The notes beneath the pieces are model-generated. The model ran no database searches, was not told the origin of the DNA, and saw only the letters and a program-made list of their open reading frames with translations. The translations under genes and the position numbers were made by a program. From Prorocentrum cordatum (taxonomy: Eukaryota), in assembly GCA_963575745.1 (NCBI GenBank), contig CAUYUJ010000292.1, positions 124,001 to 188,000 on the forward strand: a stretch of 64,000 nt of DNA, read 5' to 3'. Shown here in pieces: positions 12,200 through 53,977 of this stretch. The first letter of the stretch is position 1. Every line of letters starts with the position of its first letter.

Positions 12200-12840
12200 A
12201 GGCCCGACCACAAGAAACCTCCCACAAGAAACCCAACCCTGAACCCCAGGACGCCCATTGACTTCGGACGTGGGCACGTCACGCCCTCCATGGCAGAACC
12301 ATCGAGACCCAAGAGAAACCCGGGGCACCCTGGAGGCAAGCAGGGTGTCTCTTGGCGTGGGCCCCCACTGGTAACCCATAACTTTGGACGCCCGAAATGG
12401 GCACGGAAAGAATGGGTACAATGCCCAACAACCAATGTTGTCCCAAATCAACAGCGGCCGCTGTTGGGCAGGCGGCCTCCTGTCCCAAAGGAGCACGGGC
12501 CGCGGCGGCGCGGACAGCGATCCCTGTTCAAGATGAACAGGAACTGCTGTTGGGCATTGTACCCATTCTTTCCGTAGCCATTTCGTTCCTGCCTGCCGCA
12601 CCACCAGGTGCGTCGTCGGGGCGGGCCGGGCGTTTCGCCTGAGGCTTCCTTCAAACACTGCAGTAGGAGCCCGACCGCAAGAAACCTTCCACCAGAAGCC
12701 CAACCCTGGAACCCCAGGACGTCCATTGGTGTTTGGGGGAGCGTCAGGCTCTCCATAGCAAAACTGTACAAAACCATCAAACCCAAGACCAGGGCACCCT
12801 GGAGGCAGGCAGAGTGTTTCTTGGCATGGATCTCCACTGC
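12200..12840 (+). repeat. Two copies of a ~170-bp dispersed repeat flanking a foldback element
   Basis: 'cccaaccctg..accccaggacg...gggcaccctggaggcaagcagggtgt' at ~12200-12365 and ~12665-12840. Also at ~19985-20150 (+), ~20325-20490 (-) and ~45175-45340 (+). Confidence 0.8.
12393..12585. mobile_element. MITE-like foldback element with 38-bp TIR
   Basis: cgaaatgggcacggaaagaatgggtacaatgcccaaca (12393-12430) is the near-perfect reverse complement of 12548-12585. Second copy at 23076-23268. Confidence 0.75.
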
Positions 12841-12984
12841 ACTCCGACAGTAGGATCCCGCATCAGAATCCTCTCGGCGAACCTGGGGAATTACCCTCGA
12901 TCGCCGTCCTCGTGATGGGTGGGGCGCCCTTGCTGTCTCCGCTGCGTCGTTTTCCTTCTCGCCCCCTTGCCCTTGCGCAGGGGC

Positions 12985-14540: not shown

Positions 14541-16379
14541 TGTGAGTGATTGAATTAATGATGCTGATGTTGCAAGAGATGGTGAGGAGGCTGGTGCTGT
14601 TATGATGATGGTGGTGTGAGTGGCTGACTGTGATTGTGCGAAGGGAGACAAGCATAGGGAGGAGGAGACGTACTGCGCGGGGCTCCAGAGAAAACGAAAA
14701 CCTCACTACTAAGGATGTGGGGGGAAATCCGCCGACCCTGTCAGCGTATGTGAATTGTTTTTCGGTTTAAACCGACCTCGTCGCCGCTACCCCGCTTTCC
14801 CTGGGCCCTCCTCCTCAAGCGATCCAGCCATACGGAAACCAAAGAACGTCGTAATTGATTCGACGGGAAAGCCCTTTCTTTTGATCCCTTCCCTGGCGGG
14901 GGAGGTAGCAGGGAGAGGTCCCCAGGGGGTGGGGGGAGTAGCAGGGGGAATCCCGGGAAGGGTAGCGGGGGGGGGGTCCGAGAGGGGTCCCGGGCGTCGT
15001 GCCGCCTCCGCCAGAGGGGTCTCCCCAGTGCAGAGGATGAGCAGGGGGGCGGTCCCCTTGTGGACAGAAGGACCCCCCCCCCGCCTCGACCCTGTGGACA
15101 AGGGGACCCCCATCCTCCCCCCCCTCCTGGACCCCCCCCAAAAAACAGGTACCCTCCTCGCTCCCATCTGCTGTTGCACGGTGCTGCGTGTTTTCCTTGC
15201 ATGACTCCAGGAGGCCTCAGATCTAGTCCGAAGCGTCTCCAAGTGGCCACCAAGCTTCCCACAAAGTCTCCCAGTGGTCCCCCAACAGAGCCCAACAGGC
15301 TCCCAAGAGAGCCCCAAGAAAGGCTCCAGAGCATCAGCGTCGTCGTCGTCGCCACCGCCGCCGCCGCCGTCGTGCCCCTCCAGGGCCGGCGGCACCAACA
15401 GCAAGGCCTTCCGAATGTAAGTGCTTCCCAGTTCGAGATGCGCCCCCAAGAATTGCACAAATGGGGAACTGGTCATATTCAAAATGGAGCTCTCGCCCTA
15501 GAGAAGCGAACACCCTCTTAAGCATGTCACACAGCAGACACAACAACGGCAAGGACGCGGACGCACAACGGGCACGCAATGGACACCCGCGGACATACGA
15601 CGGACACTCATCCTTCTCCTCCTCCGCCTTCTCCTCCTTTCCTCCTATTCCACCTCCTCCTCCTCCTCCTCCTCCTCCCCCTCCTCCTCCTCCTCCTCCT
15701 TCAGCGACCTTCAGCGATCGTGGGCACATCCCTCCGCACCGAGATGCATGAAACGCGTGGCCGGCAAACAACAACAAAGAAGAAGAAGAAGAAGAAGAAG
15801 AAGCGGGGCGCGCCCGAGCGCCAGGGGCCGTTGCAGCCGAACGAGAAGCTCGGCGGCAGCACGACGGCCGACGACCGCCCGAGGGGGCCTCCGCACTCCG
15901 CAGACGCGCCAAGCCCGCGCGGCGCGGCGCACCTCCGCCCGGGGGCACGCCTGGACGACGGGGACTGCGCCGCCCAGGGAGTGCCTTCGAACTCCGGGTG
16001 GCGTCCCTGGCTTCGGGGGGCGGTCCGAACGGGGGCACCGCGCGGCGAGGATGGAAGCGGTGCCGCCCCGAAGGCGCCGCGCCTGGAACATGTCCCTGTC
16101 CCTATGCTGGGCATCTCCTCATCACGATGCCAATCTTGGGGATTCCCTTATTGTTTGAGGGCGCGTCCCTAAGCTTGTCATCGCCGTTTGGCGTGTCAGT
16201 CTGAGGGATAGGCATAAGTTCGAGGCTGGCAATCTTCGAGCTCGGGGTGGCGTCCCTGGCTTCGGAGGGCGGTCCGAACGGGGGCCCGCGCGGCGCGGGG
16301 GAAGCAGTGCCGCCCCGAAGGCGCCGCGCCGCGAGCGCCGCGAACGCCACGGCCACATCCGATGGAAAAGTCCGCGGGG

Positions 16380-16990
16380 CTCGCGAGCGGCCCTTGCAGC
16401 TCTGGACAGCCCACGGCAAACAGTTTTGCAGATGCCCACCCCAGTGCCTGACTCCTCCGCACGGTGCACACTGGTGCTTACCCTTTGGCCCGATGCGGAT
16501 CGGCTGTTGGCCGAGCGCACCTGGCACCAACCCGAGCTGAGTAGGGCGGCGCCGAATCCCCGCGCGCACCTCTTCAACATCTGGAAGGCCGCATTCGAAA
16601 AGGGCGCCTCACCGTCTCGCGAATGAGGCAGGCGCCCTGTGCCACGAGCTTCTCCTGCTCGGCGCATAGCAGACGAGCTTCAAGGTAATGGGGCTGCAAC
16701 TCCGCCCCCAGCCTGGCCAACCGATTGGCCTCTCGCTTCCCAGCCAAGGCCCAATGCAGGGCCCCCCGACCCAAGGCCAGGACCCGAGAGAGGTGGCGTT
16801 TGACCTTGCTGACTCTGATATTTTGCAGCCCTGCATCCCTGGCCCTGGCAAAAGCGTCGCACCAAATCTCGCCGAAGGCAACGCTCGTGGGGCCCAAGTC
16901 GGGCCCGCGGGCCCAAACGTCGAGGGCCATCTTGCGGTCCGTGACAAACTCCATTTCACAGGAGCCCAGCTGCCTAGGCGCCATGGAGCT
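16380..16990 (-). pseudogene. LINE-derived RNase H plus Cys-rich C-terminal fragment
   Basis: EFVTDRKMALDVWARG...AFGEIW...IRVSKVKRH...WALAGKREANRLARLGAELQP aligns by eye with the RNase H of the 27871-29286 ORF (VVCDCKMVVDIW...AYAEVW...VEKIRSH...WRGNREADRLAK). Confidence 0.75.
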
Positions 16991-17191
16991 ACTGGAGCGC
17001 GTGGGGGAGGCGCCCATAGATCGAACCGATGACGCCCTCCCCCCCCCCCTGTCGACGGCAACGGCCCCCAAACCAGCGCGCGCGCCACCAGGTCCCTGTC
17101 GGGATCCACAGCAGAGCCGCCCGAGCAGATTTTGCCAGTGTCGAGCGCCCCAGACGGGGGGGCGAGGGGGGGGAGGGGGGAAGGGGGGGGG

Positions 17192-17222
<31 letters not shown>

Positions 17223-18069
17223 CGAAATCCATCTGAACTGGAATCCACGCGGGGGGCAGGCCAGACACACTCTGGGCTCGGCAAGAAAGCGCGGGTCGCT
17301 CCCTGGGTCGTCGCCCGAGCGGGCTCGCGACCCAAGGGGCGAAAGCATCGCCCGGGCCGAGGCTCTCCCCGAGCACGCGGCTGCCATCGCATCCGCAAAG
17401 CCGGCGCTTCGGGGGGCCCGCGAAGCCGCCGCGCCACTAGCAGAACGGGCGCAGGACACGGCGCTCCGCAAAAAGGGCACGCTGGGTGAGGAGCAGGAGG
17501 AGGAGGAGGAGGAGCAGGAGGAGGAGGAAAAGGAGGAGCAGGAGGAGCAGGAGGAGGAGGAGGAAGGGGAGGAGGAGGACGACGAGGAGGAGGATTATGA
17601 GAAGGCGGAGGAGGAGGAGAAGGAGGAGGAGCAGGAGGAGGAGCAGGAGGAGGAAGGGGAGGAGAAGGACGACGAGAAGGAGGATTATGAGGAGGCGGAG
17701 GAGGAGGAGGAGGGGGAGGAGGAGGACCAGTGTAAACCCAAGAGTCATCAACGATGTTGGAATTAACCTCCCTCCAAGCTCCCTCTTCATAGGCCCCTAC
17801 AACAGTTCATTTCCATTGAGGGAACTGCCTCGGTGGAAAACAACCGTTTGAAGACCCTGAAGCATGCCAAACCATTGTTCTCGGGATTTCAACGCCACGG
17901 ATCAACCTGACTGCTGCGTATTGACGATTCGGAATCGTGCCAGAATGCAATTTTGGGATCTCAACACCGCGAAACAACATGACTGCTGCACCAGCATAAG
18001 CCTGAATCCTTCCAAAACACCATTTCTGGTACGCTGATCATGGGGATCCGTGAAACTCTTGCAACTTGT

Positions 18070-18450
18070 TAGAACGAATGCGCTCGACGCCAAGGCGATA
18101 GCCACATTTTGAACATCACCCGCCCCCAATCCGTGCAATGTGCGCAGCGCTGGGGCGAGAGCCGCATTTTGAAAACCAACCGCCTGAATTCCGTGAAACG
18201 GTTGCGAATGTTTAAAAACAATGTGCGCGGCGCTAAGGCGAGAGCCACATGTTGAAAAAGACCCGCCCTCAATCCGTGATTTGTTTGCAAATCTTTGAAA
18301 CGAATGTGCGCGGCGCTAAGGCGAGAGCCACATTTTGAAAACCACCCGCCCTCGATCCGTGAAACTCTTGCAGTGTTTGTGAAAGAAATGTGCGCGGCGC
18401 TAAAGCGAGAGCCACATGTTGAAAACCACCCGCCCTCCTGTGAAACTGTT
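18070..18450. repeat. ~83-bp degenerate tandem array, ~5 copies
   Basis: 'aatgtgcgcggcgctaaggcgagagccaca' at ~18221, 18303 and 18387, plus diverged copies upstream. Confidence 0.85.
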
Positions 18451-19339
18451 GTCACTTTTTTCTTACTTCAGAAAATAAGTGGTAAGGAAGTCTCAGGCGA
18501 AACGCCCGGCTCGCCCTAAAAACTGGGCTCGGGGTGCGGCAGGGAGAAGTTATTTACAAGGAGAAGGAATGGAGGAGGAGGAGGAGGAGGAGGAGGACGT
18601 GCCTCTGAGCTTCTTGCTCGATAGTTAATAAGGGTCCCGAGCGCCCTCTTGCCCCATCCTACCAGGACGAGCCGAGATTCCGCGGCAGGCCACCCCATCG
18701 CGACACACTCGAACCGCCCAGCCGCGACGACGAAGGGTGCACAAAACCGCGCCAGCAGGTCCCGCGACCTGCCCCCAGCCAAAATCCCCAAAAAAGCAGG
18801 CGTCACAACTCTTCTTCATCTGGGCCCGGGCTGCCCCGTCTCCGTGCACGGTCAGGCACCGAGTGAGAAGGGGGTCGGTGTTAGCCGCGGAGGAAGGGTC
18901 GGATGTTTGATCCCCCCAAGCTGATACTCTATCCTGGATCGACCTTTCGGGGTCCCAAAGATGGACTGGCCGAACACAAATCTAACTCGGCGAAGCCTGG
19001 CATCCGCGATGCCCATGACAGCACTGCCGCACATGACGGCTGGGAGACATCCAGTCATGACCACGCACGAGACCCCTCGGAAAAATGGCCGAAAGCCCCG
19101 AAACCGCTTCACCCTCGGCGCGATGGAAGAGACCCTCTTCCTCTGGACCCCAGCACTCCGCTATCACTTTTCGACCGAAAAAAAAGACCCACTTCTTTCG
19201 TTCTCAAAGTATTAAAGCCCCACCCTTTTATCCCCCTCACCACCTCCTTGCCTACCTCCCCGTCCGCGGCCATGGCCCCCTGGAGATGAAGAGGAAGAGG
19301 CCCTGGAGCTGGGTGGGGGGGCAACTGGCTGTAGCGCCC

Positions 19340-19840
19340 AATCGCTGTCCTAGGTGGGTGGGCTACAACTCCCGCGGCAAAAAGCGCGGTGTCATCCACC
19401 ACGTTAAACGCACGAGTGCTGGGCCAGCGGGCAATCGCGGCATCGACGGGGGCGAGCAGGATGAGCTTGATCAGGCTGGTTGCGAAGGCACAGCCCGCGA
19501 TGACCCGTTGCCCCACGTAGATGATACCCGAGGTGGACTGGTTCATCTGGAGCAACTTGGGGGCATGGCATATAGAGAGCAGAACCAGGCACCTAACCAG
19601 GGAAAATCCACGCCCGATCGCCGCGTGGGCCAGAGGGATCTGGAACACTGTGATTGTTATGCGCCTTGGCAAGGTCCACCAGGACCGCCCCTGTGCCGAC
19701 CTCGACCAGAACCCGAATTCGGCGGCGTGCGCTTGCTCCCAAACCGACCGCTCGCAGCTTCTGCCGACGGCCACGCAGTGGCACCACCTGCCTTGCTTGG
19801 CCCCCAAGGCCACAGCTTCGGCACGCGTGACTTTTCCAAA
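19340..19840 (-). pseudogene. LINE reverse transcriptase fragment (same family as the 23.5-29.4 kb element)
   Basis: GRSCERSVWEQAHAAEF ... VIAGCAFATSLIKLILLAPVD...RAFNVVDDTAL parallels GRSCERAVWEQSAIGEF ... ILAGCTVATILLKVFLDP...RTFNVVDDITL. Frameshifted. Confidence 0.85.
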
Positions 19841-20579
19841 GGAGGAGGAGGAGGAGGTGGAGGAGGAGGAGGAGGCCAGAGCCCTGTGGGCCTGAAACCC
19901 CATCAGGAGTGGGGAGAAAGGCGCGAACATGAGCGCGAGCTGGACTGGCGCGCGCCCCAAGGGCCCGCACCGAGTTTCCAGGGGGCCCGACCACAAGAAA
20001 CCTGCTACAAGAAATCCAACCCTGAGACCCCAGGACGTCCACTGATGTTGTTTTGGTGTGGGAGCGTCACGCTTTCCATCGCCAAACCATCGAAACCCAG
20101 GAAATTCAGGGCACCCTGGAGGCGAGCAGGGTGTTTCTTGGCATGGGTCTCTGCTGTACACGTGCCGCCCTTCCCACGACCTTCGAACTCCTCCCCCAGA
20201 ATCGTCGACCTCGCGTCGCCACGGCCACCTGCGTTGATCGGCCATTGCCAGAGAGGAACAGTTGTGCCCCGACTCTTCTGGTGCTGTCCAAATGCGGAGC
20301 ACCAACAACATCATGTACCGTGGAGGCCCGTGTCAAGAAACACCCTGCTTGCCTCCAGGGTGTCCTGTGTTTCTTGGGATTCGATGGCTTGGCGATGGAA
20401 AGCGTGACGTTCCCACACCAATAGAAACAGTGGACATCCTGGGGTGTTGGGATTATTGTGGAAGGTTGATTGTGGTCGGGCCTCCACTGTATGCAGTGGA
20501 ATGCTCGCCCGAAGCGAAGCAGCCTATCTGAGCACACGCAATGAAGCCGTCCTGCCCAACTGGCTCGACAAATTTAATA

Positions 20580-20616
20580 CTTGGGCCACAATGGCTGGAG
20601 GCACAATGGCTACGGA
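20580..20616 (-). other. Genomic dinoflagellate spliced-leader copy plus tandem relict SL
   Basis: Minus strand TCCGTAGCCATTGTGCCTCCAG (19/22 to DCCGTAGCCATTTTGGCTCAAG) immediately followed by CCATTGTGGCCCAAG (13/15 to the relict unit). Confidence 0.8.
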
Positions 20617-20618
20617 AT

Positions 20619-20990
20619 CTCCTCCTCCTCCTCCTCCCCCTCCTCCTCCTCCTCCTCCTCCTCCTCCTCCTCCTCCTCTTCCTGCTCTCACTCCCCCTCC
20701 TCCTCCTCCTCCTCCTCCTCCTCCTCCTCCTCCTCCTCCTTGTCCTCCTACTCCTCCTCCTCATCCTCCTCATCCTCCTACTCCTCCTCCTCCTCCTCCT
20801 CCTCCTCCTCCTCCTCCTCCTCTCCTCCTCCTCTTCCCTCCTCCTCCTCCTCCTCCTCCTCCTCCTCCTCCTCCCTCCTCCTCCTACTCATACTCCTATT
20901 CTACCTCCTCCTCCTCCTCATCATCATCATCATCCTCCTCCTCCTCCCCCTCCCCCTCCTCCCCATCCCACTCCTCCTTCCCCTCCCCCC
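20619..20990. repeat. (CCT)n microsatellite
   Basis: Direct inspection. Confidence 0.95.
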
Positions 20991-21829
20991 TTCCTCTCCC
21001 TCATCCCCCTCGGCACAGCCTGAGCGCCAACGGAGCGTCTGCACCGATGCACAGAAGTGGGTAGCGCTGCCCTTTGATCGGTCCTTACCACTTTCGCCCC
21101 CACACATTCCAGTCAACGAATGCCAAACCAGCTGCCTGTGAGTGCTTGCTGGCTCACCAGCACAGGTGGGATCGGCAGAACGGAGGGGTTGCACAAGCAC
21201 GTGCCGCTCCGTAGTAACATGGATGCGACCTCGGGCAATAGTGGAATGAACCCGAGCGCCCGGGGATCCAGCGGGCTGCGGTCCAGGGTAGGCATCGGCG
21301 AACTTCGCTGATACCGAATTTCCTCACACCACGCACACTACACTTAAGTCGGGCGCGTCCCCCTACAGAGGGGTTTCCGACGAAAAATAAAACATACTCA
21401 CACAATGCTCCAAAATGGTCAAAAAAATACTAGATGTGAAAAAAAAGTCCCCAGACTATTTGTATCATTTGTGAATATTCCCCCTGTAGAAAGAGAGGGA
21501 CAGGCCCGACGTAACACTACACACCACCTCCCCCCCACAGGCTGGAAAGGATGGGCAGCATATACCCGTCCACCTGCACTGGCCTGCCTTGTATCTGCGA
21601 GGCCCGCACGAGGAGGCACGGCAGGGGTGGCAGTGGGAGGGGCGACGAGGCGAAGCTGCGTGTCGTGGGGGTTCGCACACGCAGCCTTCTGCTTGTCAGA
21701 AAAACGAGTGCTGCCCATGTCAGCCAGGGCGGGGCCAACCTGCGCGACCCAAGACGCCCAAACAGATAGGACCTTGACCTTGGCTACGCGGCGATCTCTC
21801 AACACGGCGGGAATGCGAAATCGATCGCA

Positions 21830-22230
21830 CTGGCACTGCGCCCAGCCGTCGGCCAGGTCGCTTGAAGCCTTGTGGAACTCCGAACTGAGGCCCCCCTGCA
21901 CATGCGCGCGCGTGCTGTGCGCGCGCCTTCACAACACGCATCTGCTCGAGACCGCTCAAGTCCTCGATGCGCATCCCAACCTGGCTCCACAGTTCGGCCC
22001 AGGCGCTGCGGCTGCAGACACGATACTCATGGCCCAGAAGGTACAGGCCATCGTGCACGAACCGACTGTCCGTTTAAGAGGTGGTGACAGGGGCAGCATG
22101 CTGCAGGCCGCACAGCAGGGCGACCAGCTCAGTCGCGTCGACGTCAGCTCCGAACAGAACAGGAGTGCCACAGAAAACCAAAAGCGTGCGGCGGCTGTCG
22201 GGATCGATCGCGACCAACGCCCACGCCAGA
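21830..22230 (-). pseudogene. Second LINE-type RNase H fragment
   Basis: ALVAIDP...DVDATELVALLCGLQHAAPVTTS*TDSRFVHDGLY...SAWAELWSQV...MRVVKARA, then frameshifted HKASSDLADGWAQ. E, D and terminal D motifs lie in RNase H order; in-frame stop. Confidence 0.65.
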
Positions 22231-23075
22231 GCCTGACATCCCCCTCATCCCCCTCCTCCTTCTCCTCGCCGTCCTCCTCCTCCTCCTCCTCCTCCTCCTC
22301 CTCCTCCTCCTCCTCCTCCTCCTCCTCCTCCTGCTCCTGCTCCTCAACCCCGTCCTCCACCTCCCCCTCCTCCTCCTCCTCCTCCTCCTCCCCCTCCTCC
22401 TTCTCTTCCTCCCTCGCCGCAGACGCCGCCTGGCGGAGGGGGGGAGCCGCGTGGGCTGGGCAACGGCTCGACTGCCGGGCAGCGAGCTGAGAGCGGGGGC
22501 GCGGCCGCGGCGGCTCCAGGAGGGAGGAGAGAGGGAGAAGGAAAAAAGGAAGGAGGCTCGAGGAGGGGGTGAAGAAGGAAGGGAAGGAGGGACGAGGGGG
22601 TGGGAAAGAAGAGGAAGATGGTGGAGGAAGGTGGGGGGAACGGAAAAAGAGTAACTATATAAGAAGGCGATGAAGAATAGGAGCAATTATAATGTTACGA
22701 GGGGTAACAAGAATGAGAGGAAAAAGAAGCGGGGACAATCCTGCAAACCAGCCGATGACTCTACAACGCGCACCGCGCAGCACAGTTGACAGTGTCGACA
22801 GGTAGCGCCAGCCATCCCTCCCGAAGCGACGACAACGACACCGACCACCACGACAACATCGACGTTTCCGGCAACTGCGCCAGAGACCGTAGAGCCTCAC
22901 CGCAGGAGCCAACTCCCATGACCAAGAGAACAGAAAGGACGCGGGCAGAAAGACTGCGTGCCGAGCGCCCCCCACCCCCTCCCCGTCCTGGACCCACCCT
23001 CCACCCAGTCCACTGCCCCGCCCTCCGATTCGCGCCCGCCCTCCGCTGCTTCCAGCTGCCATATATTTGGACGCC

Positions 23076-23268
23076 CGAAACGGGTACGGAAAAAATTGGC
23101 ACAATGCCCAACAACAAATATTGTCCCAAACCAACAGCGGCCGCTGTTGGGCAGGCGGCCTTCTGTCTCAAATGTACACAGGCCACGGCGACACCGATAG
23201 CTAGTCCTGTTCAAAATGAACCGGAACCGCTGTTGGGCATTGTACCCATTCTTTCCGTACCCATTTCG
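23076..23268. mobile_element. MITE-like foldback element, copy 2
   Basis: Homologous to 12393-12585, including the internal palindrome aacagcggccgctgtt. Confidence 0.75.
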
Positions 23269-23492
23269 TTCGTACCGAATGTATCCCTCCCCACACCCCG
23301 CCCTCCGCTGTTTCCAGCTGCCATATACCGACCCGCATGCGAGGGCTGCGAATGCGACCCGCATGGCGCCCTCCCTCTGGACGGTTTCCCCCGGGGCCGT
23401 AGGCGACCCGAGGAGGGGAGGGCGAGGAGGAGGAGGAGGAGGAGGAGGAAGAGGAGGAGGAAGAGGAGGAGGGGGAGGAGGAGGGAAGAGGA

Positions 23493-23539
23493 TCCGTAGC
23501 CTGGCTCAAGCCAGCTGGCTCAAGCCGCTCTGGCTCGAG
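23493..23539 (+). other. Spliced leader plus two relict SL repeats at the LINE 5' end
   Basis: TCCGTAGCC----TGGCTCAAG CCAGCTGGCTCAAG CCGCTCTGGCTCGAG versus DinoSL DCCGTAGCCATTTTGGCTCAAG and relict CCATTTTGGCTCAAG. Confidence 0.8.
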
Positions 23540-23635
23540 ACATGCCAGGCACAGGGCCTGCACGCACCGCTCTCCAGGAGCCGCCAAAGGCTCGCCAGCG
23601 GGAAGAATGTTTCGCCACTTGCAGAGCGTACAGCC

Positions 23636-24736
23636 ATGTCGTTCAGCAAGAGCTGGTCCAAGGGAGGCGGCAAGAGTGCAGGCAAAGGCACAGCACAGCA
23701 TACGTACGCGGGAAGTTGGTACGACCAGCCTGGAAGTACCAAGTGAAGTGTGGATGCGGATGTGGCAAGAATCAAGCAGACTGGAACTGGTGCAAACACT
23801 GTGGAGTACCAAGGTCGATGGGCGAGGTCTTTCTGCCGAGGGACGGCCTCAGCCAAGGCGTTGGCCCAAGGTGTGCTCCCTCCTCCTGGTCTTCATCTTG
23901 CACCTCTGCGTGTGGGAGCTCAGCATGGGACTGGCGGCTGCGGCGGCTGCCAGGACCTCAAGAGCCTCATGGATGCGGAGCTGCAGAGTTTGGAGCAGTT
24001 GGGCAGCAAGACGAACAATAACCAGCTCACCAGTGCTTGTCAGCAGGAACGTGTTCGCCGATCACAGCCAGGCCGTGCAGCGCACGAAGTGGCAGGAGAG
24101 GCGCACTCGCATTTGCAGTACATGGAAAAGCAGCTGCTGGTTGCGACCGAGAAGCTCGAGGGCCTCTCCAAGCAGCACGCCGAGCAGCAGATGGTCACCG
24201 ACCTGGTCGCGAAGGTGGAGCTGGCCAAGTCCGAGTACCAGCAGGCGGTGGCGGTGCTCCACTCCAAGACCGTGGGAGCGCAGGAGAGAGTGCAGCCTCC
24301 GTCGGTGTCGGCCAAGTTGTGTATCCGAGACATACTGGAAGGCAACATTCAAGATATCTTCGTCGACGACGAAAGTCTCTTCGGCCTGGGCGACGTGCAG
24401 GAGCTGGATGCGACTGACAAGTCCCAGCTTGAGGAGCGCAAGAGGTTGCTTCCAGAGGGTCTCAAGTCAGTCACGGAGAACCTGTTCAGTTCGGTCAAAG
24501 AGAAGGCGGAGTCCCTGGTACAGCAGCATCAGGAGCACTCCGAGCGCCTCAAGAAGAAGCGCAAGGGTGACAACAGCAAGCAGGTGCAGAAGCAGGTGGA
24601 GAGCGTGGCCGCGGAAGCGACGCAGGCTGCTGCGAGTGCAGCGGCCGCCGCCACACCTGAGTCGAAGCCTTCTGACGCTCTCGCCCGAGCCAAGGCAGCC
24701 CTCGCTGCCACGGGCGAGAGCCCGACGCATTCCTAG
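23636..24736 (+). pseudogene. LINE ORF1 (RanBP2-like Cys finger plus coiled coil), frameshifted
   Basis: gccATG at 23636 (MSFSKSWSKGGGKSAGKG). Adjacent frame gives WKYQVKCGCGCGKNQADWNWCKHCG; a third frame gives a long E/K/Q-rich helical region ending at stop 24736. Confidence 0.7.
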
Positions 24737-24808
24737 CCATCACGAGCGCCTAGTAGCCTGCAACCGTCCGTTGTCTCCTCCGCCTTCCTCCCCCCCCCCC
24801 CCCCCAAG

Positions 24809-25520
24809 TTGCAGGCTGCGAAGCGCCGTGAAGAGTTCGTGGCGGAGACCGCAAACTCTTCAGGCTGGGGGCCTCTTTGTCGATTCTTGGCTGAGGAGTC
24901 GAGAGCCGATGTGGTTTTAACCCAAGAGATCGGGCGAGCTCAGTTTCAGATTAAAGAGGCAGAATCTCGATTAGCTACCTTCGGCTGGCAGTGCAGCCTG
25001 AGGTCCTCAGTCGTTACCCAGGACGGCGGGCTTTCGGGTGGCGTCGGTGTCGGATGCCGACGATCATTCGGGATGAGCCTGCCGCCTGGAGCCAGCAACC
25101 CTCGTCCCCCCAGCCCCCACAGGGTCCACACATGCTGGGTCAATGCGTATATCCCTGGAGGGTTCCTCGCTGTTTCACTGTATCTTCCCACGGGGGGTAT
25201 GGCCTTGGGGCCTGAGGGGTCTCATCTACTTGTCAGGCTAGGGGAGCTGTTACATGGATGGAGATTGCCATATGTCATAGGCGGAGGCTGGAACTGCACT
25301 CCGCAAGCGCTTCGTGAGTGTGGATGGGAGTCTCGGCTTCGTGCTACTATATGTGGTCCGTCTCTTCCTACGTGCAGATGTGGTAAGGTCTGGAAAATTC
25401 TTGATTACTTCTTGGCCTCCCCTGGGCTCGCTAGTTCCGTCAAAGAAGTACGTCGTAGCAGAGCTTCAACGCTGAAGCCGCACTGGGCAGTCCAGCTAGT
25501 GATGCGGCACAAGGCGGTGT
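24809..25520 (+). pseudogene. LINE ORF2 apurinic-like endonuclease (APE) domain
   Basis: ETANSSGW...DVVLTQE...SGGVGV...VSLYL...YVIGGGWN (GDWN with D>G)...LDYFLAS...PH. Confidence 0.85.
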
Positions 25521-25864
25521 TGCCAGAGGTGCCGCGCCTGTTCAGCCCCAAAAGTGTTCCTCGAGACCGAGCTGATGCACCCTTCGGGCCGCCGACGGCG
25601 CCAGTGGAGTGGGGCACGCTCTCGGCGCGTCTAGAGAATGCGCCAGATGCTCACAGGTTTCAGTTGTTATTCTCAGAGTTCTTGGGCTTGTGCGAGGACG
25701 AAATGCGCAGGGCCTTCTGTCTGGACGAGGAGCTCGGGGAGGAATATCGGGGGCGGGTCCAGGTGCCCAAAATCCAGGTGGTGCCTGAGATTCAGACCAC
25801 GGGGGGTCCGTACCCTGTGGGGTGTGCTCTGGATCGAGGGTAGCGATCCCTCCACATCTGGATT

Positions 25865-27852
25865 ATGGAGCTGTTTTATATCAAGTCTAAGGGGGTGTCT
25901 TGGCGCGGGGTTGATACCCAGTGCATCGTAAACAAGGTTGTCCGAGGCCCTCCGTCACTTAGGAACTACCAGAAGTGGATCTCGTGGTGTCCTAGTCGTT
26001 CAGTGCTGCAGGACGCGTCCGCCCAGGAACTGTACCTCTGGGCGTTAGACGCGGGCAGCATCGCCGACAAGTTAGAGCGCGCCCAGGTCACAGCACGTCA
26101 GTCCGCCTGGAGCTGGGTCAAAGAAGCTGTTAAGAATGGTGGGGTCTTGGTCACAGGTACACTAAAGCCCCCCTCGGGCTGGGTCCCTTCTAAGGCCCCG
26201 ACCCCTGACCAGGCCCCATCTGGGCCGCAAGAGATGTTAGGTGATCTTACTTCGGAGTGGGAAGGGATCTGGAATACTCCTGGGGGGGAAGTTCCATGTG
26301 AGAGTCCACTTGAGGTTCTGAATGATCACATCGCCAGCCTCAACGATGAGGAGTTTCACCGCATGTTGGACTGGGAGTTCGACCCAGTCGCCATCCGCGC
26401 TGCATGCAAGAAGTTTAAGGCCAGGACGGCCCTGGGCAGCGACAACGTCCACCCGAGGGACATCCTCCTGGTCAGCGATGACTGTCTTCATGCTTTGGCA
26501 GGCCTCTGGAAGACATATTTCGGATCGGTCACGTTCCCAGTCAAATGAAGATCATCCTGGTTGCTATGATAGAAAAACCTGACGGCGGTCACAGGCCCAT
26601 TATGCTGCTTTCGGCGGTTGTTCGGATCATGTCTCGGATGCTCCGTCGCGCTGCAGCATCATGGGAACGGGACCACCCGCGTGAGTATGCTTATGGCAGT
26701 GCTGGCCGCTCGTGCGAGAGGGCGGTCTGGGAGCAGTCGGCCATAGGAGAGTTCGCCCAGAACACTGGGACAGAGTTTGCGTCCTCCCTCCTCGACTTCA
26801 CCAAGGCGTATGAAAAGGTTGCTCAGATTATATTGGTCCAGGCTGCCATAAAACACAATTTCAACGGTTTCACCCTTCGGTACCTTCTGACGGTTTATCG
26901 TGGCCAGCGTCATGTTCTCCTGGGGAAGATGTGCTCTCGTGGGGTGTTTGCCATACAAGCCATACTTGCAGGATGTACGGTTGCAACTATCCTCCTGAAA
27001 GTATTCCTCGACCCCCATCGACATGCTCGCGGATACTTTTCGTTTGCCCGAACATTTAATGTGGTGGACGACATCACTCTATGCATGACGGGGAGCGGCA
27101 GGACTGTAAGAAATGGTGTTGGCCTCGCCAATTTCTTCCTGTGCCCGCAGCTTGAGCGGATGTGCTTGATCGTGTCCAGGACCAAAGGGGCGGCAGTCGC
27201 TACTCAGGGTTGGATATCAAAAGACACCGCCAGCAAGCTGAAACGATGGCAGTTCAGGCATAGTAAGTCTACTAAAAGTTTGGGTGTGGACGTCAAGGTC
27301 AGGGGACGCCTTGGAGCTAGAGTCGACCTTGGTCGCATCGGCAAGCTTCAGCATCGAGCGCACCGCTTTCGAGCCCTTCGCTCAGCAGCGGTGGGAGCCA
27401 AGCGTATTTTGAAGACTGGAGGTCTCCCTGCAGGAATGCACGGTGCGCGGGTGCACGGAGTATCCAACAAAAGGCTCGCGCAGCTGAGATCAGTTATTGC
27501 TCGCAGTGCGTTTGGAGTTTCGCGAGGCAGATCACGTACTTTGGAGTTCCAGCTGTGTGCCGACCCGACCCTCGACCCTACCTTCCAGGCCAACCTCCTC
27601 CCACTCCAGTCCTGGGTGCAGGCCTGGCGTGAGCAGTGGTTGCCCAGAAGTCTCCTCACGAACATCTTCGAGGTTGCCCATAAGCGCCCTGGGTTTGATT
27701 GGAAGCATGTCCATGGTCCTGGGGGCGCCGCTGTTTGTACTTTAAAGCGGCTGGGATGGACGGCTCGTCACCCAGTCATTCGGAAAGACTTCAGAGGCAC
27801 GATCTTGGATTTTGGGCATATGGAAAAGAAGACTCTTAAGACGCGTGTTTAA
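25865..27852 (+). pseudogene. LINE ORF2 reverse transcriptase domain (frameshift near 26545)
   Basis: TALGSDNVHP; IEKPDGGHRPIMLL; LLDFTKAYEKV; ILAGC; FNVVDD; KSLGVDV. Confidence 0.92.
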
Positions 27853-27870
27853 TATGGCATCAAGCTGGCC

Positions 27871-29286
27871 TTGCAGAAGGGCCTCGAGGGCATCAACTTC
27901 CACGGGAGCGTCTTGGTTGGAACCCCTCGTCTGGAGCCCATCATCGAGGTCCTGAGGCAGTTACGATCCCGAGGCCAGGCTGCGGGTGCAGCCTACTTGG
28001 CAGGATGCGTGGCAGGCGGCTACCCTACCCAGAGCATCCTTTTCAGAGATCGGCGGGCGATCAGCACGAATTGCAGGTTCTGCGGCGACCTCGGCACGCC
28101 CCAGCACAGGATTGTAGGATGCCCAGCCACGTGGTGGATTCGACGGGAGTTGGATGTGCCCGAGGCGATCGCAGATTTCGAGCAGGCTCCGTCTTACGAC
28201 ATTGGTACCGCCCGATGCCTAGTCCCCAGCCTGGCGTTTGAGGCCCCTCCCCCCCGTCAGGATGAGTCTCAAGTCTGGAATGTTTTGCCCCCCAACGGTG
28301 TCTTCGGTGGGAGTGTTGCGATTGATGGCTCGGCCTTTTCCCCTGGAGACCTCGCGTTGGAGCGTGCTGGTTGGTGGATTGTCCAGGTTGATCGCCATGG
28401 AGGTTGGGATGGGGCTCTATATGGGCCCTTGCCCCACCCTGTCCAGCAGTCGGGGTGTGCCGAAGTGTACGCCCTTTTGATGCTCATCAAGAACGTCGGG
28501 GTTGAGCCCGTGCATGTAGTGTGTGACTGTAAGATGGTTGTAGATATCTGGGAAGCTGGCAGCGGCCAGCGCCTGGATAACGTTGCGTATGCTGAAGTGT
28601 GGCGCGAGATTTTCCGCAGGTGTGAAGATTTAACCGCGCCCGTCTCGGTCGAGAAGATTCGAAGCCACCAGTCATGGGCCAAGGCGTCTGCTCAGGGATG
28701 CGCTTGGTGGGCCTGGAGAGGCAACCGAGAAGCAGACCGCCTGGCCAAGTTGAGTGCTAAGATGCACCCTGTCTCTCCGCAGCTGCTGAATGAGCTGAAA
28801 GCCGTCGACTTCCAGGTTCAGGGCCGAGCGGTCTTGGTCGTGGGAGTCGGGGGTGTTTTATCTAGGCTCAACTTCAACGATGCCGATAGGTTCCGTGCGA
28901 AGCGGTACAAAGCGGCAGATGCAGGTTTAGAGCTCGTGTCCGAGCCCAATGGACACGACCTCGTGCGAGTGGGCAAGAGATCCGCTTGTGTGCGATGTGG
29001 AATTCGTGATTCGTCGAGAAATGCTATAACGGCGTTTCCCTGCACTGGACTCCCCCGACCTGCTCGTTTGGCCCACCCCTCCCATCGACTTTGGAGTGGT
29101 GACGGTGGCCGATGGTGTAGTATCTGTGGGGCGTTCGGCACGAAGAAGGTGGTCCTCCTCGCCAAGGCCTGCAATGGAGGGCCTCGGAATAAGGATGCGT
29201 CTCACTCCCTGAGTCTCCTCAAAGGGGGAATTGACCCATCGTCAGGTGTGGAATTCGGCCGATCGTTTCCCCTCAAGAGAGAGTGA
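27871..29286 (+). pseudogene. LINE ORF2 C-terminus: CCHC motif, RNase H and two further His/Cys fingers
   Basis: CRFCG..QHRIVGC; IDGS..AEVYAL..VCDC..IRSH..GNREADRLAK; GHDL..CVRCG..C; HRL..WCSICG..C. Confidence 0.9.
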
Positions 29287-30787
29287 CCCCTCTGAGTGCC
29301 GTGCGTGTTATTATCCCGTTTTTGTCCCACGTGTTGCAGCAGCGGGACCTGGTGCGCCAAGGACCTAGAGGACCTAGAGGAGGAGGGAGGAGGGAGGAGG
29401 AGGAGGAGGAGGAGGAGCGCCGCTGTCTCCACCCCGCTCTCCGCCGTTGCAGACGCACCTCCGCCCTGCCCAACGCCCGCCCCGGCGCAAAACACCCCGC
29501 GCCCCGCACGCCGCCGAGAGCGAAGCAGACGGGCGGCAGCCCTCCGCTGCGGTGCGGCGCGAGGCCGGGGCCGCCGGGCCCACGAGGAGTTTCCTTGAAG
29601 GGGCCCAGGGACACACAAATCAATACACACACGAATCCTAGGATTCCCCATATCTTTCAATATGTTCTGGGTTTTCGTCTTCCCCCACTTCCCATATTTT
29701 CCCATGCTTTCCTGGGGGTCGACGATGAATTGTGTCTGTGTGTTTCTTTCCCTCCTGGATTTCCTGGGACCCCTGCCTGGTCAAGGACGGCCCAGCGGAC
29801 GAACAAACCCAGCCAGCCTGTTGGGCGTGGGTAGTTTTAGGTCGGGAATGTCCCCCCTACAGTGTGGTTTTGGACGAGAAATAAACAAATACTCAAACTC
29901 CCCGTAGAGGGACAGGCGCTCAGTGAGGCAGTTCGTCCAACCTCCTTCCCCATCGGGCCTGGGTCCGGAGGGGGAGCGCCGCGGGTCGTTGGAGCGTCCA
30001 AGGTGGACCAAGAGGGCCCCGAGAGCAGATGGCCCAAGATGACCTCCAATATTGCACAAGATAGCCCAAGTTGGCTCTAGATGGCCTCTCAAGTGCCACC
30101 AAGAGGCCCCAAGACGGCCTCAAAGAAAGTTCCGAGCGGCCACGGAGCCTTCCATGGAACCCCCCACGAGGCCAAAATCCTGCGGGAAAGCTACACAAGG
30201 AGTGCCGTCTTCTCGCCTTTTCGTGTCCGACCAGCTTTGGAGGTCTCAAGATAGCTTCGGCATAGTTCAAGAGGGCCCCAAAATGGACCCAGGAGGCAAT
30301 TGCTCGACCTCTGGCGGCGAGAGCGTATATAGTTGAGTATCTCCCTTCTCTGGTCGATTGCCTTCACCATGGCGTCAAAGCGCCCAAAAAAATCCACAAG
30401 AGGGCGCCGAAAATCCCCAAGATGGTCCCAAGAGAGCCCCGAAGGCCTCCAAAATAGCCCCAAGATGTCCCAAGTAAGCGGCCAACAGGCTCCCATCTCG
30501 AAAGATCCGCGAAGGCGTTGACGGTTGACTCCTGGGCCTGCTCAAGCTGATCCCGACATTCGGTTTGCTGGCTACCCCCTCCCATTGTTCCACTGCGTGC
30601 TCCTACACCTCCCTGGTCCATGCAACTCGCCTGGGCATCGCTTCCGGCTGGGCTGGTGGGGATTCGGTTCTTGTTTGGCGGGGATTCGTTCCCAACCATC
30701 CTGTGTTGGGTCCTCGTGTTGAAGAGACGGTGCCCCGCGTTCTCATCTTCTCCTCCTCGCATTCCTCCTCACCCTCCTGCCTCCTCC

Positions 30788-35450: not shown

Positions 35451-35562
35451 GATGAAGCCTTCCTCATCGCAGAACTACCCCTCCTCCTCACCCTCCTCAG
35501 TGGGAGGAGTAGGACGTGAGATGGATAGGCAATGTTCTCCCCTCCTCCTCACCCATGTCACT

Positions 35563-36775
35563 GGGAGGGGCACGAAACCATTTAAATAGTGTGGGTTTCG
35601 GATACCCTCCTCGCTCAGACGGGGCCTCCCTGGAGGGGTGGGAGGGGCACGAAACCCTGTAAATAGTCTTGGTTTCCGATACCCTCCTCGCTCAGGCGGG
35701 GCCTCCCTGGAGGGGTGGGAGGGGCACGAAACCATGTAAATAGTATGGGTGTCGGATACCCTCCTCGCTCAGGCGGGGCCTCCCTGGAGAGGTGGGAAGG
35801 GCACGAAACCATGTAAATAGTATGGGTTTCCGATACCCTCCTCGCTCAGGCGGGGCCTCCCTGGAGAGATGGGAGGGAGGGGCACGAAACCATGTACATA
35901 AGATGGGTGTCCGATACCCTCCTCGCTCAGGCGGGGCCTCCCTGGAGGGGTGGGAGGGGCACGAAACCATGTAAATAGTATTGGTTTCCGATACCCTCCT
36001 TGCTCAGGCGGGGCCTCCCTAGAGGGGTGGAAGGGGCACGAAACCATGTAAATAGTACGGGTTTCCGATACCCTCCTCGCTCAGGCGGGGCCTCCCTGGA
36101 GGGTAGGGAGGGGCACGAAACAATGTAAATAGTATGGGTTTCCGAAACATTCCTCGCTCAGACGGAGCCTCCCTGGAGGGGTGGGAAGGGCACGAAACCA
36201 TGTAAATAGTATGGGTTTCCGATACCCTCCTCGCTCAGGCGGGGCCTCCCTGGAGAGGTGGAGGAACACGAAACCATCAAAATAGTATGGGTTTCCGATA
36301 CTCTCCTCGCTCAGGCGGGGCCTCCCTGGAGGGGTGGGAGGGGCACGAAACCTTGAAAAATAGGATTGGTTTCCGATACCCTCCTCGCTCAAGCGGGGCC
36401 TCCCTGGAGGGGTGGGAGGGGCACGAAACCATCTAAATAGTATGGGTTTTCGATACCCTCCTCGCTCAGACGGGGCCTCCCTGGAGGAGTGGGAGGGGCA
36501 CGAAACCATGTAAATAGTATGGGTGTCGGATACCCTCCTCGCTCAGGCGGGGCCTCCCTGGAGGGGTGGAAGGAGCACGAAACCATGTAAATAGTATTGG
36601 TGTCCAATACCCTCCTCGCTCAGGCGGGGCCTCCCTGGAGGGGAGGGAGGGGCACGAAACCATGTAAATAAAACGGGTATCCGATACCCTCCTTGCTCAG
36701 GCGGGGCCTCCCTGGAGGGGCGGGAGGGGCACGAAACCTAGTAAATAGTGTGGTGCTCCGATACCCTGCTCGCTC
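35563..36775. repeat. 77-bp tandem minisatellite, ~16 copies
   Basis: Unit 'gggcacgaaaccatgtaaatagtatgggtttccgataccctcctcgctcaggcggggcctccctggaggggtgggag'. Confidence 0.96.
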
Positions 36776-36780
36776 TTGCG

Positions 36781-37160
36781 GGTATGGTATGGTAAGATAT
36801 GTATGGTATGGTATTGTATGGGTAGTTTGGTATGGTATTATATGGTATGTGTGGTATGGTATTGTATCGTATGGTAGGTATGCTATTGTATGGTAGGTAT
36901 GGTATGGTATTGTATGGTAGGTATGGTATGGTATGGTGTGGTATGGTATGGTATGGTACGTATGCTATATAGTATGGTTGGTATGGTATGGTATTGTTCG
37001 GTATTGTATGGTATGTATGGTATGGTATGGTGTGGTTTGGCACGGTAGGTATGGTATGGTATGGTATCGTTTGGTAGTGTGTGGTATGTATGGTATGGTC
37101 TGGTGTGGTATGGTAGGTATGGTATGGTATGGAATGGTAGACATGGTATGATATGGGAGG
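36781..37160. repeat. (TATGG)n pentamer microsatellite
   Basis: Direct inspection. Confidence 0.95.
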
Positions 37161-53961: not shown

Positions 53962-53977
53962 CTTGAGCCAGATGGCT
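53962..53977 (-). other. Relict spliced-leader copy
   Basis: Minus strand AGCCATCTGGCTCAAG versus SL 3' part AGCCATTTTGGCTCAAG; abuts a microsatellite. Confidence 0.6.

What the first reader, a model, noticed from the sequence alone, without database searches (positions are those of the whole stretch)
23493..29417. Full-length LINE capped by a spliced leader and two relict SLs: a retrotransposon that appears to cycle through SL trans-splicing
Seen: the element starts where a (GGA)n tract ends, with TCCGTAGCC----TGGCTCAAG followed by CCAGCTGGCTCAAG and CCGCTCTGGCTCGAG, about 97 nt before the ORF1 ATG. Established: dinoflagellate mRNAs receive the 22-nt DinoSL, and retroposed genes accumulate truncated relict SL units (CCATTTTGGCTCAAG) with each recycling round. 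Inference: this LINE lineage was trans-spliced and re-integrated up to three times. It may need no internal promoter, because read-through transcription plus trans-splicing at the AG in the previous SL would regenerate a precise capped 5' end. I cannot tell whether this has been described for this family.
Basis: partly seen in the sequence, partly recalled or inferred. Interest (0 to 1): 0.85.

Follow-up and report, generated by a model that had tools for sequence, protein, structure and literature searches.

The report
Dinoflagellate LINE headed by spliced-leader relicts
A dead jumping gene in a dinoflagellate-type genome begins with three worn DNA copies of the short leader that these cells splice onto their messenger RNAs, so its lineage was copied back into DNA from leader-capped RNA several times, which points to LINEs as a possible engine of dinoflagellate mRNA recycling.

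Summary
Window 23493-23539 reads as DinoSL lacking ATTT, followed by two relict units in the canonical register. It sits between a (GGA)n tract and a 5.9-kb LINE (ORF1, APE, RT, RNase H-like region, (GGA)n tail). The LINE is complete in layout but dead: at least 3 in-frame stops and 1 frameshift.

The match is not chance. A leader-plus-relicts template scores best in the whole window at exactly two places, the 5' ends of this LINE and of a second, divergent LINE on the minus strand (28 and 27; simulated maxima 12-17).

Two further LINEs on public metagenome contigs, one from an unrelated clade, also start with leader relicts.

The best reading is that LINE RNA was SL trans-spliced and reverse-transcribed to its 5' end, at least three times in this lineage.

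Not shown: that the leader is renewed at every jump, or that no internal promoter is needed. No RNA data could be obtained. Polarella data show RT transcripts under-represented among leader-bearing transcripts.

Five paper searches found no explicit description in dinoflagellates. Retrogene relicts and leader-tagged Schistosoma transposons are close precedents.

Earlier notes of this scan report the same thing in at least 10 other windows of this genome.

The parts
23424..23492 (+). Upstream (GGA)n purine tract that abuts the element's first base. It is either the target microsatellite or the tail of an earlier insertion.
   Evidence: Sequence; tract list.
23493..23510 (+). Leader unit 1: TCCGTAGCC|TGGCTCAAG, which is DinoSL with ATTT deleted (18 of 22 positions, no substitution).
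23511..23524 (+). Relict unit 2: CCAGCTGGCTCAAG (12/15 to CCATTTTGGCTCAAG).
23525..23539 (+). Relict unit 3: CCGCTCTGGCTCGAG (11/15).
23540..23635 (+). 96-nt 5' UTR between the leader array and the ORF1 ATG.
23636..24736 (+). ORF1 remnant. It starts in frame 2, has a stop at 23744-23746 and a coiled-coil-like remainder at 23747-24733. A possible zinc-ribbon lies in another frame (23500-24021). No homologue was found.
   Evidence: Zn_ribbon_3 E 0.018, weak.
24737..29286 (+). ORF2 remnant. APE about 24887-25456. RT 26569-27015 by Pfam, with family homology 26491-27759. RNase H-like region about 28417-28755. Cys-rich C-terminus. Broken by stops at 25841 and 27850 and a frameshift near 26482-26548.
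   Evidence: Exo_endo_phos 25.2 bits against cutoff 24.5; RVT_1 E 4.6e-4; RVT_3 E 0.0055; RNase_H E 0.044. (2582 relatives at E<=1e-3). (APE+RT colinear in 68 of 153 hits).
29287..29417 (+). 3' UTR and tail: (GGACCTAGA)x2 at 29361-29378, then a (GGA)n-like tract to 29417.
15620..20616 (-). LINE-B, a second, divergent and decayed LINE. Leader TCCGTAGCCATTGTGCCTCCAG at 20616-20595 (19/22). Relict CCATTGTGGCCCAAG at 20594-20580 (13/15). Nested foldback repeat at 20491-19981. RT homology 19957-18709. RNase H-like 17487-16691. (GGA)n tail about 15702-15620. It lacks ORF1 and APE.
20618..22415 (-). LINE-C, a 5'-truncated LINE fragment with no leader. It starts after (GGA)n 22415-22245, has RNase H-region homology at 22226-21836, and ends in a roughly 390-nt (GGA)n tail (21010-20618) that runs up to LINE-B's leader.

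Best explanation
LINE-A (23493-29417) is a dead, structurally complete copy of a non-LTR retrotransposon: ORF1, then an ORF2 with apurinic-type endonuclease, reverse transcriptase and an RNase H-like region, and a (GGA)n 3' tail.

Its RNA template was a mature, spliced-leader-capped transcript. The element's machinery reverse-transcribed that RNA to its very 5' end, so the 22-nt leader was written into DNA.

A later transcript from such a copy received a new leader at the AG inside the old one (TCCGTAG|CC). This left a 15-nt relict, and that RNA was inserted again. One leader plus two relicts therefore records at least three such rounds in this lineage.

Insertion took place at or into (GGA)n tracts, probably because the (GGA)n RNA tail pairs with the nicked (TCC)n strand.

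Shown: the DNA-encoded leader array at the exact 5' boundary, its register and decay gradient, its recurrence on independent LINEs, and the LINE domains. Inferred: trans-splicing of LINE RNA, the number of rounds, and the priming mechanism.

Whether the leader is renewed at each jump, and whether read-through transcription replaces a promoter, remains open.
For: 1. Sequence and register of the three units. Each relict begins with CC directly after ...AAG. This is the truncation after nucleotide 7 at the AG that PMC3229502 describes for relict leaders (passages).

2. Identity falls from 5' to 3': 18/22, 12/15, 11/15. This is the published decay pattern.

3. The template scan puts the two best sites of the whole window, both strands, at the 5' ends of LINE-A and LINE-B (28 and 27 against simulated maxima 12-17). 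These two are the only LINE bodies in the window with RT homology (at a looser cutoff one search also found LINE-C, an RNase H-region fragment without RT homology).

4. LINE-C, an ordinary 5'-truncated fragment, has no leader. That is expected if the leader sits only at the RNA's 5' end.

5. No GT donor follows any unit. Leader RNA genes read ...CTCAAG-GTACAC (PMC12584245 passage).

6. Independent LINEs elsewhere. L154 has a leader (1 mismatch) plus a perfect relict at 84-120, an ORF1 ATG at 185 and APE homology at 2283-2984 (E 3.5e-10). L195 has three relicts at 4841-4798, ORF1, an ORF2 with Exo_endo_phos_2 and RVT_1 (3.4e-16), an A16 tail and genomic flanks. L195 shows no BLASTP similarity to LINE-A's RT. 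These are 2 of the 10 contigs that hold at least 2.5 kb downstream of the motif, out of 119 loci.

7. (GGA)n lies on both sides of 3 of 3 LINE insertions, in the element's own orientation, although such tracts cover only 4.3% (+ strand) and 0.9% (- strand) of the window.
Against: - There is no RNA evidence: no run was listed, so trans-splicing of this LINE's transcript is inferred from DNA only.
- No same-family copy could be compared, so renewal cannot be told from inheritance of the array.
- In Polarella CCMP2088, RVT_1 is strongly under-represented among DinoSL-type transcripts (Supplementary Table 11, p about 9e-56). Most RT transcripts there lack a detected leader.
- Units within one element share oddities: all three LINE-A units have lost the T-run, and both LINE-B units read ATTGTG. 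Independent additions of a canonical leader do not predict this. It could reflect local duplication, gene conversion or a variant leader.
- L154 and L195 were found by searching for the motif, so they show occurrence, not frequency. 8 of the 10 long contigs showed no LINE ORF2.
- LINE-B's lack of ORF1 and APE could be a later internal deletion and need not reflect an internally spliced RNA.
Confidence: 0.7

Rival explanations
1. Inherited fossil or leader mimic. An ancestor of the family was trans-spliced a few times, and the array then became a fixed part of the 5' UTR. Later copies were transcribed from an internal promoter starting at or near unit 1, without new trans-splicing. The DNA-encoded leader might even serve as a built-in imitation of a host mRNA 5' end.
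For: - Units within one element share the same oddities.
- RVT_1 is under-represented among DinoSL-type transcripts in Polarella.
- An earlier scan note (e1-7628838, unchecked) reached this reading for another copy.
- Giant-virus contigs hard-code the same leader upstream of genes, so DNA-encoded leaders exist without retroposition cycles being obvious.
- Relict arrays would grow without limit if a unit were added at each jump, and they do not.
Against: - The relict register itself requires at least three real trans-splicing and integration rounds at some time.
- The leader heads LINEs of unrelated clades and at non-homologous internal positions (LINE-B at roughly LINE-A position 26400-26500; L195). 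Acquisition is therefore recurrent and not a single ancestral event.
- Splicing at the leader's own terminal AG would renew it without adding a unit, so a stable array length does not exclude renewal.
Confidence: 0.2
2. Template switching. During target-primed reverse transcription, the enzyme jumped from the 5' end of an uncapped LINE RNA onto a leader-bearing RNA, which made a chimera.
For: The LINE-C / (GGA)n / LINE-B head-to-tail arrangement would fit template jumps between RNAs. Chimeric retrocopies of this type are known for mammalian L1 (recalled, not checked here).
Against: - A jump onto leader RNA would copy its intron part (GTACAC...), which is absent.
- A jump onto an mRNA would add mRNA body sequence between leader and LINE.
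- Two or three units in exact relict register are not expected from jumps.
Confidence: 0.05
3. Site-specific insertion into a spliced-leader RNA gene, as in SLACS, CZAR, CRE and NeSL-1. On this reading the leader would be flanking target DNA.
For: Leader sequence lies next to a non-LTR element. Such families exist in other trans-splicing organisms (names recalled; PMC3636483 seen in a search listing only).
Against: - The whole exon through ...CAAG precedes the element, and nothing leader-like follows its 3' end.
- The upstream flank is (GGA)n, not a leader gene.
- There is no GT intron.
- The endonuclease is APE-type, not restriction-like.
- Units are in relict register.
Confidence: 0.02
4. 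Chance resemblance in a repeat-rich, GC-rich sequence.
For: One TCCGTAGCC (12571) is indeed a chance match inside another repeat, whose second copy reads TCCGTACCC.
Against: Scores of 28 and 27 against simulated maxima of 12-17, and both sites lie exactly at LINE 5' ends.
Confidence: 0.01

Closest known systems
DinoSL-relict retrogenes ('recycled processed cDNAs': Slamovits and Keeling 2008, as described in passages of PMC3229502, PMC7245778, PMC5585692 and PMC6050394)
   Same: A DNA-encoded leader is followed by tandem relicts truncated at the internal AG, and the units decay towards the 3' side. Both are read as repeated rounds of transcription, trans-splicing, reverse transcription and integration.
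   Different: Here the recycled unit is an autonomous LINE that encodes its own endonuclease and reverse transcriptase, not a host gene. The passages read treat the source of the reverse transcriptase as unknown, and PMC6050394 favours LTR copia elements. Song et al. noted only that the GO term 'RNA-dependent DNA replication' is enriched among retrogenes.
Schistosoma mansoni transposable elements with genome-encoded SL exons (PMC5832876, passages)
   Same: A leader exon is fused to retrotransposon sequence in the genome. The authors suggest 'trans-spliced retro-transcribed elements'.
   Different: That is a different phylum and a different leader, with six cases and no relict arrays. The authors could not exclude assembly chimeras.
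Trypanosomatid L1Tc/ingi elements with the Pr77 internal promoter (PMC1874656, abstract start in search listing only)
   Same: These are LINEs living in a genome where host mRNAs are trans-spliced and promoters are scarce.
   Different: L1Tc solves the 5'-end problem with an internal promoter that yields unspliced transcripts. The elements here carry the host leader instead.
SL-gene-specific retrotransposons (SLACS, CZAR, CRE1/2, NeSL-1; recalled)
   Same: A non-LTR element lies next to spliced-leader sequence.
   Different: Those elements insert inside leader genes with a restriction-like endonuclease, and the leader is target DNA. Here the leader is part of the retrotranscribed RNA, the endonuclease is APE-type, and the target is a (GGA)n tract.
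Microsatellite-targeting LINEs (for example Kibi, Koshi, Dong; names recalled, not checked)
   Same: The same simple repeat lies on both sides of the insertion, and the element's 3' tail consists of that repeat.
   Different: Clade membership was not tested. The (GGA)n specificity rests on 3 insertions in one window plus unchecked earlier notes.

Membership tests
DinoSL-relict retrocopy | DinoSL sequence encoded in genomic DNA at the 5' boundary of the copied unit | tested here: met
   18/22 at 23493-23510, directly at the (GGA)n boundary. Top-scoring site of the window.
DinoSL-relict retrocopy | Tandem relict units that start after the internal AG (CCATTTTGGCTCAAG register) | tested here: met
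   Units at 23511-23524 and 23525-23539 both start with CC directly after ...AAG. Register as in PMC3229502.
DinoSL-relict retrocopy | Similarity to the canonical unit falls towards the 3' side | tested here: met
   18/22, 12/15, 11/15. The gradient is mild. LINE-B shows none (19/22, 13/15).
DinoSL-relict retrocopy | Transcripts carry a fresh leader upstream of the relicts | not testable with these tools
   No sequencing run was listed.
Non-LTR retrotransposon (LINE), APE type | Apurinic-type endonuclease domain N-terminal to the RT in one ORF2 | tested here: met
   Exo_endo_phos 25.2 bits against cutoff 24.5. APE and RT are colinear with 68 of 153 family proteins.
Non-LTR retrotransposon (LINE), APE type | Reverse transcriptase domain | tested here: met
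   RVT_1 is below Pfam's cutoff (E 4.6e-4). However phmmer finds 2582 relatives, 126 at E<=1e-30, and PF00078 is precomputed on the closest three.
Non-LTR retrotransposon (LINE), APE type | 3' tail and target-site duplication | tested here: inconclusive
   The (GGA)n tail is present. The repeat on both flanks prevents a duplication from being delimited.
Non-LTR retrotransposon (LINE), APE type | Intact reading frames (potentially active copy) | tested here: not met
   Stops at 23744, 25841 and 27850, and a frameshift near 26482-26548.
SL-gene-specific retrotransposons (SLACS/CZAR/CRE/NeSL-1) | Insertion inside a leader RNA gene, with leader sequence split across both flanks | tested here: not met
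   The 3' flank has no leader or intron sequence. No GT donor. The upstream flank is (GGA)n.
SL-gene-specific retrotransposons (SLACS/CZAR/CRE/NeSL-1) | Restriction-like endonuclease C-terminal to the RT | tested here: not met
   APE-type endonuclease N-terminal to the RT. The C-terminus is RNase H-like and Cys-rich.
Microsatellite-targeting LINE | The same simple repeat flanks the insertions on both sides in a fixed orientation | tested here: met
   3 of 3 LINE insertions in the window. The sample is small.

The most novel reading that the evidence does not exclude
These LINEs are promoter-less passengers of host transcription. The DNA-encoded leader supplies two built-in AG acceptors, so any read-through precursor is trans-spliced into a capped, translatable, full-length template. 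Splicing at the terminal AG renews the leader exactly, and splicing at the internal AG adds a relict.

On this reading the same (GGA)n-primed machinery is the long-sought reverse transcriptase that recycles dinoflagellate mRNAs into the thousands of leader-tagged retrogenes, and its tails seed the genome's abundant (GGA)n tracts.
Probability: 0.25. Interest if true: 0.8.

Novelty: new variant of a known kind. Interest (0 to 1): 0.6.

Why it matters
Dinoflagellate genomes hold thousands of leader-tagged retrogenes. The passages read say that the enzyme behind them is unknown and lean towards LTR copia elements (PMC6050394; PMC5585692).

LINEs that carry the leader and relict arrays at their own 5' ends show that a LINE machinery copies leader-capped RNA end to end, and does so repeatedly. 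That makes LINEs a concrete candidate for the retroposition engine.

It also suggests how a retrotransposon can persist in a genome with few conventional promoters, and it offers a rough per-lineage count of past rounds.

The claim can be tested directly with genome-wide 5'-end alignments and SL-primed long-read cDNA.

Tried and rejected
- Whole genome: none is held for this window, so the proposed census of genomic copies could not be done.
- Sequencing runs: none was listed for 23478-29380, and no RNA holder was listed.
- Other nucleotide copies of LINE-A in the window: none.
- The search for related loci with the RT segment: viral contigs gave 5 pattern matches but no relative. A3 (window plus P0005) gave 249 pattern matches in metagenome contigs but no relative.
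- Exact DinoSL scan of viral contigs: 119 stretches, 137 unique occurrences, almost all on AT-rich giant-virus bins. There were 0 LINE-family hits within 8 kb on either side.
- SL+relict scan of genome contigs: 2 loci, no LINE.
- ORF1 of LINE-A and of L154 found no relatives among the 119 SL+relict loci, nor each other. Leader-bearing LINE transcripts could therefore not be recognised among the 68 transcript-like short contigs.
- Only 73 of 102 candidate ORFs (those from loci L120-L198) were sent to Pfam. The 29 short ORFs from unflanked loci were left out.
- TCCGTAGCC at 12571 was rejected as a leader. It lies inside a palindromic repeat whose other copy (23059-23271) reads TCCGTACCC.
- The search of earlier findings by sequence and by an eight-word query gave nothing.
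- Gene orientation around the element, which bears on read-through, was not resolved. A list of ORFs of 180 aa or more in this GC-rich window is uninformative.
- Literature: five searches and passages of 13 papers gave no explicit description of leader-capped LINEs in dinoflagellates. Supplements other than those of PMC7245778 were not opened, and subscription papers (including Slamovits and Keeling 2008 itself) were not seen.
Full report
**What is there**

One search shows a purine (GGA)n tract (23424-23492 by the regex) that ends at 23492. It is followed by:
- TCCGTAGCCTGGCTCAAG (23493-23510)
- CCAGCTGGCTCAAG (23511-23524)
- CCGCTCTGGCTCGAG (23525-23539)
- a 96-nt untranslated stretch
- an ATG at 23636

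The canonical leader DCCGTAGCCATTTTGGCTCAAG is printed in PMC7245778 (passage). The relict register is described in PMC3229502 as 'truncated after nucleotide 7 ... corresponding to an AG' (passage). Against these the three units match 18/22 (one 4-nt deletion), 12/15 and 11/15.

**The element**

Downstream lies a LINE:
- An ORF1 remnant.
- An endonuclease domain (Exo_endo_phos, 25.2 bits against a cutoff of 24.5).
- A reverse transcriptase (RVT_1, only E 4.6e-4).
- A weak RNase H-like region.
- A Cys-rich C-terminus.
- A stop at 29286.
- A tail of (GGACCTAGA)x2 plus (GGA)n ending at 29417.

A full HMMER search gave 2582 relatives at E<=1e-3 and 126 at E<=1e-30. The endonuclease and RT are colinear in 68 of the 153 stored hits.

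The copy is dead. It has in-frame stops at 23744, 25841 and 27850 and a frameshift near 26482-26548. 'Full-length' holds for the layout only.

**Is it more than chance?**

- TGGCTCAAG occurs 3 times against 0.89 expected.
- TCCGTAGCC occurs 3 times against 0.48 expected.
- A local-alignment scan with the template leader+relict+relict over both strands gives its two best sites at LINE-A's 5' end (score 28) and at 20616 on the minus strand (score 27). Twenty simulated 64-kb sequences reached at most 12-17.
- The third TCCGTAGCC (12571) is a chance match inside a palindromic repeat whose other copy reads TCCGTACCC.

**A second and a third LINE in the window**

tblastn with LINE-A's proteins and with 153 family proteins finds only two further LINE bodies, both on the minus strand.

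LINE-B reads (GGA)n-AT|TCCGTAGCCATTGTGCCTCCAG|CCATTGTGGCCCAAG|TATTAAA... (20616-20580; 19/22 and 13/15).
- It has RT and RNase H-like homology at 29-45% identity to LINE-A.
- It ends in a (GGA)n tail near 15702-15620.
- It carries a nested foldback repeat at 20491-19981.
- It has no ORF1 or endonuclease. Its leader junction corresponds to about position 26400-26500 of LINE-A.
- Either a shorter, internally trans-spliced RNA was mobilised, or an internal deletion followed insertion. I cannot tell which.

LINE-C (RNase H-region homology at 22226-21836) is an ordinary 5'-truncated fragment.
- It starts right after (GGA)n 22415-22245 and has no leader.
- Its roughly 390-nt (GGA)n tail runs up to LINE-B's leader.

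All 3 insertions therefore have (GGA)n on both sides in their own orientation. Such tracts cover 2733 nt of the + strand and 597 nt of the - strand of the 64-kb window. This fits priming of a (GGA)n-tailed RNA on a nicked (TCC)n strand, or jumps between tailed RNAs. It is inferred, not shown.

**Relatives elsewhere**

- No genome is held, no run was listed, and RT-based scans found no DNA relative.
- In 68 of these loci the motif lies within 40 nt of the contig start, so they look like transcripts. Only 10 loci have at least 2.5 kb downstream.
- Two of those 10 are LINEs.
  - L154: leader with one mismatch plus a perfect relict at 84-120, ORF1 ATG at 185, endonuclease homology at 2283-2984 (E 3.5e-10).
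  - L195: three relicts at 4841-4798 preceded by ...CACCAG, ORF1, a 1049-aa ORF2 with Exo_endo_phos_2 and RVT_1 (3.4e-16), an A16 tail and genomic flanks.
- L195 has no BLASTP similarity to LINE-A's RT segment. Leader relicts therefore head LINEs of at least two unrelated clades.
- These two were found through the motif, so they show occurrence and not frequency. The other 8 long contigs showed no LINE ORF2.

**Mechanism**

The best-supported reading is the published recycling cycle applied to a LINE. The RNA is SL trans-spliced, reverse-transcribed to its 5' end and integrated. The new copy is transcribed and spliced at the AG inside the old leader, and the cycle repeats. Three units imply at least three rounds.

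Points in favour:
- The register of the units and the decay gradient.
- The absence of a GT donor after any unit. Leader genes read CTCAAG-GTACAC (PMC12584245 passage).
- The absence of a leader on the truncated LINE-C.
- The recurrence on independent LINEs.

In Symbiodinium, only 1112 of 8564 retrogenes carry two or more relicts (table in PMC5585692). LINE-A and LINE-B, which were not selected for unit number, carry three and two units. This fits elements that cycle more often than genes, but n = 2.

**What is not shown**

Against a general rule, Polarella Supplementary Table 11 lists RVT_1 as under-represented among DinoSL-type transcripts of CCMP2088 (p about 9e-56).

Units within one element share the same oddities: the T-run is lost in all three LINE-A units, and both LINE-B units read ATTGTG. 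Independent canonical additions do not predict this.

The main rival is therefore that the array is an inherited fossil, or a leader mimic, of the 5' UTR. An earlier unchecked note of this scan favoured this for another copy.

The leader's own terminal AG would allow exact renewal without adding a unit, so a stable array length does not decide the matter.

Template switching and insertion into a leader gene are rejected on the flanks and on the missing intron sequence.

**Comparison with what is known**

Leader-relict retrogenes are well known (passages). The passages read give the source of the reverse transcriptase as unknown:
- PMC6050394 leans to LTR copia elements.
- PMC5585692 notes enrichment of 'RNA-dependent DNA replication' among retrogenes and presumes LINEs.

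In Schistosoma, six genome-encoded leader exons are merged to transposable elements and were read as possibly trans-spliced retro-transcribed elements (PMC5832876).

Five searches and passages of 13 papers gave no explicit description of leader-headed LINEs in dinoflagellates. Subscription papers, and supplements other than one, were not seen.

This scan's earlier notes report the same signature in at least 10 other windows of this genome, some inside (TCC)n tracts. I treat these as leads only.

**Verdict**

- It is a new variant of a known kind: the recycled unit is the retrotransposon itself.
- Its interest is moderate to high, because it names a candidate for the retroposition machinery and is directly testable.

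Noticed in passing
L001-L119 (viral contigs), e.g. L012 8001-8021, L024 8001-8121, L054 8001-8021: The exact 21-nt DinoSL is encoded in DNA on AT-rich (GC about 15-30%) giant-virus MAG contigs: 119 stretches, 137 unique occurrences. It usually lies 30-90 nt upstream of an ATG and is preceded by recurrent AT-rich motifs (for example ...aaatataaatttta|SL...ttttactaaacca|SL...ctagta|SL). It looks as if giant viruses of dinoflagellates hard-code the host leader at the 5' ends of their genes. No LINE-family homology lies within 8 kb.
   Followed up: partly
window 15620-22415, minus strand: Head-to-tail chain: (GGA)n, then 5'-truncated LINE-C without a leader, then a roughly 390-nt (GGA)n tail, then 'AT' plus leader-headed LINE-B, then (GGA)n. 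Either there were successive insertions into an earlier tail, or one event with template jumps.
   Followed up: partly
window 12192-12842, 19981-20491, 45163-45345: Foldback or MITE-like repeat with about 180-nt inverted arms (75-81% identity between copies). One copy is nested in LINE-B. The copy at 12192-12842 itself holds a palindromic 213-nt repeat (12376-12588) that recurs at 23059-23271, just upstream of LINE-A.
   Followed up: partly
window 53962-53975, minus strand: A lone relict-like unit CCATCTGGCTCAAG directly after (TCC)n...CCAG, with an ATG about 60 nt downstream. It may be a leader-tagged retrocopy of something else. Its score is within the chance range for the two-relict template (14).
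   Followed up: no
window 29361-29378 and 15735-15705 (minus strand): Both LINE tails are preceded by a short direct duplication: GGACCTAGA x2 in LINE-A and (G)GTCGCTGAAG-like x2 in LINE-B. This may be a slippage signature of tail synthesis.
   Followed up: no
window 35479-36860; 7421-8039, 50668-51380, 54470-55034; 1-1300 and 49415-49900: Other satellite arrays: a 77-nt tandem repeat (15 copies), 90-nt repeats at three places, and CCCAAGA(N)-type 10-11-nt repeats at both ends of the window. Together with many (GGA)n and (GAT)n tracts they make the window very repeat-rich.
   Followed up: no
L240 (genome contigs), contig end: A contig in a MAG labelled Flavobacteriaceae ends with a full DinoSL plus two perfect relicts. 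This is most likely dinoflagellate DNA or cDNA binned into a bacterial MAG.
   Followed up: no
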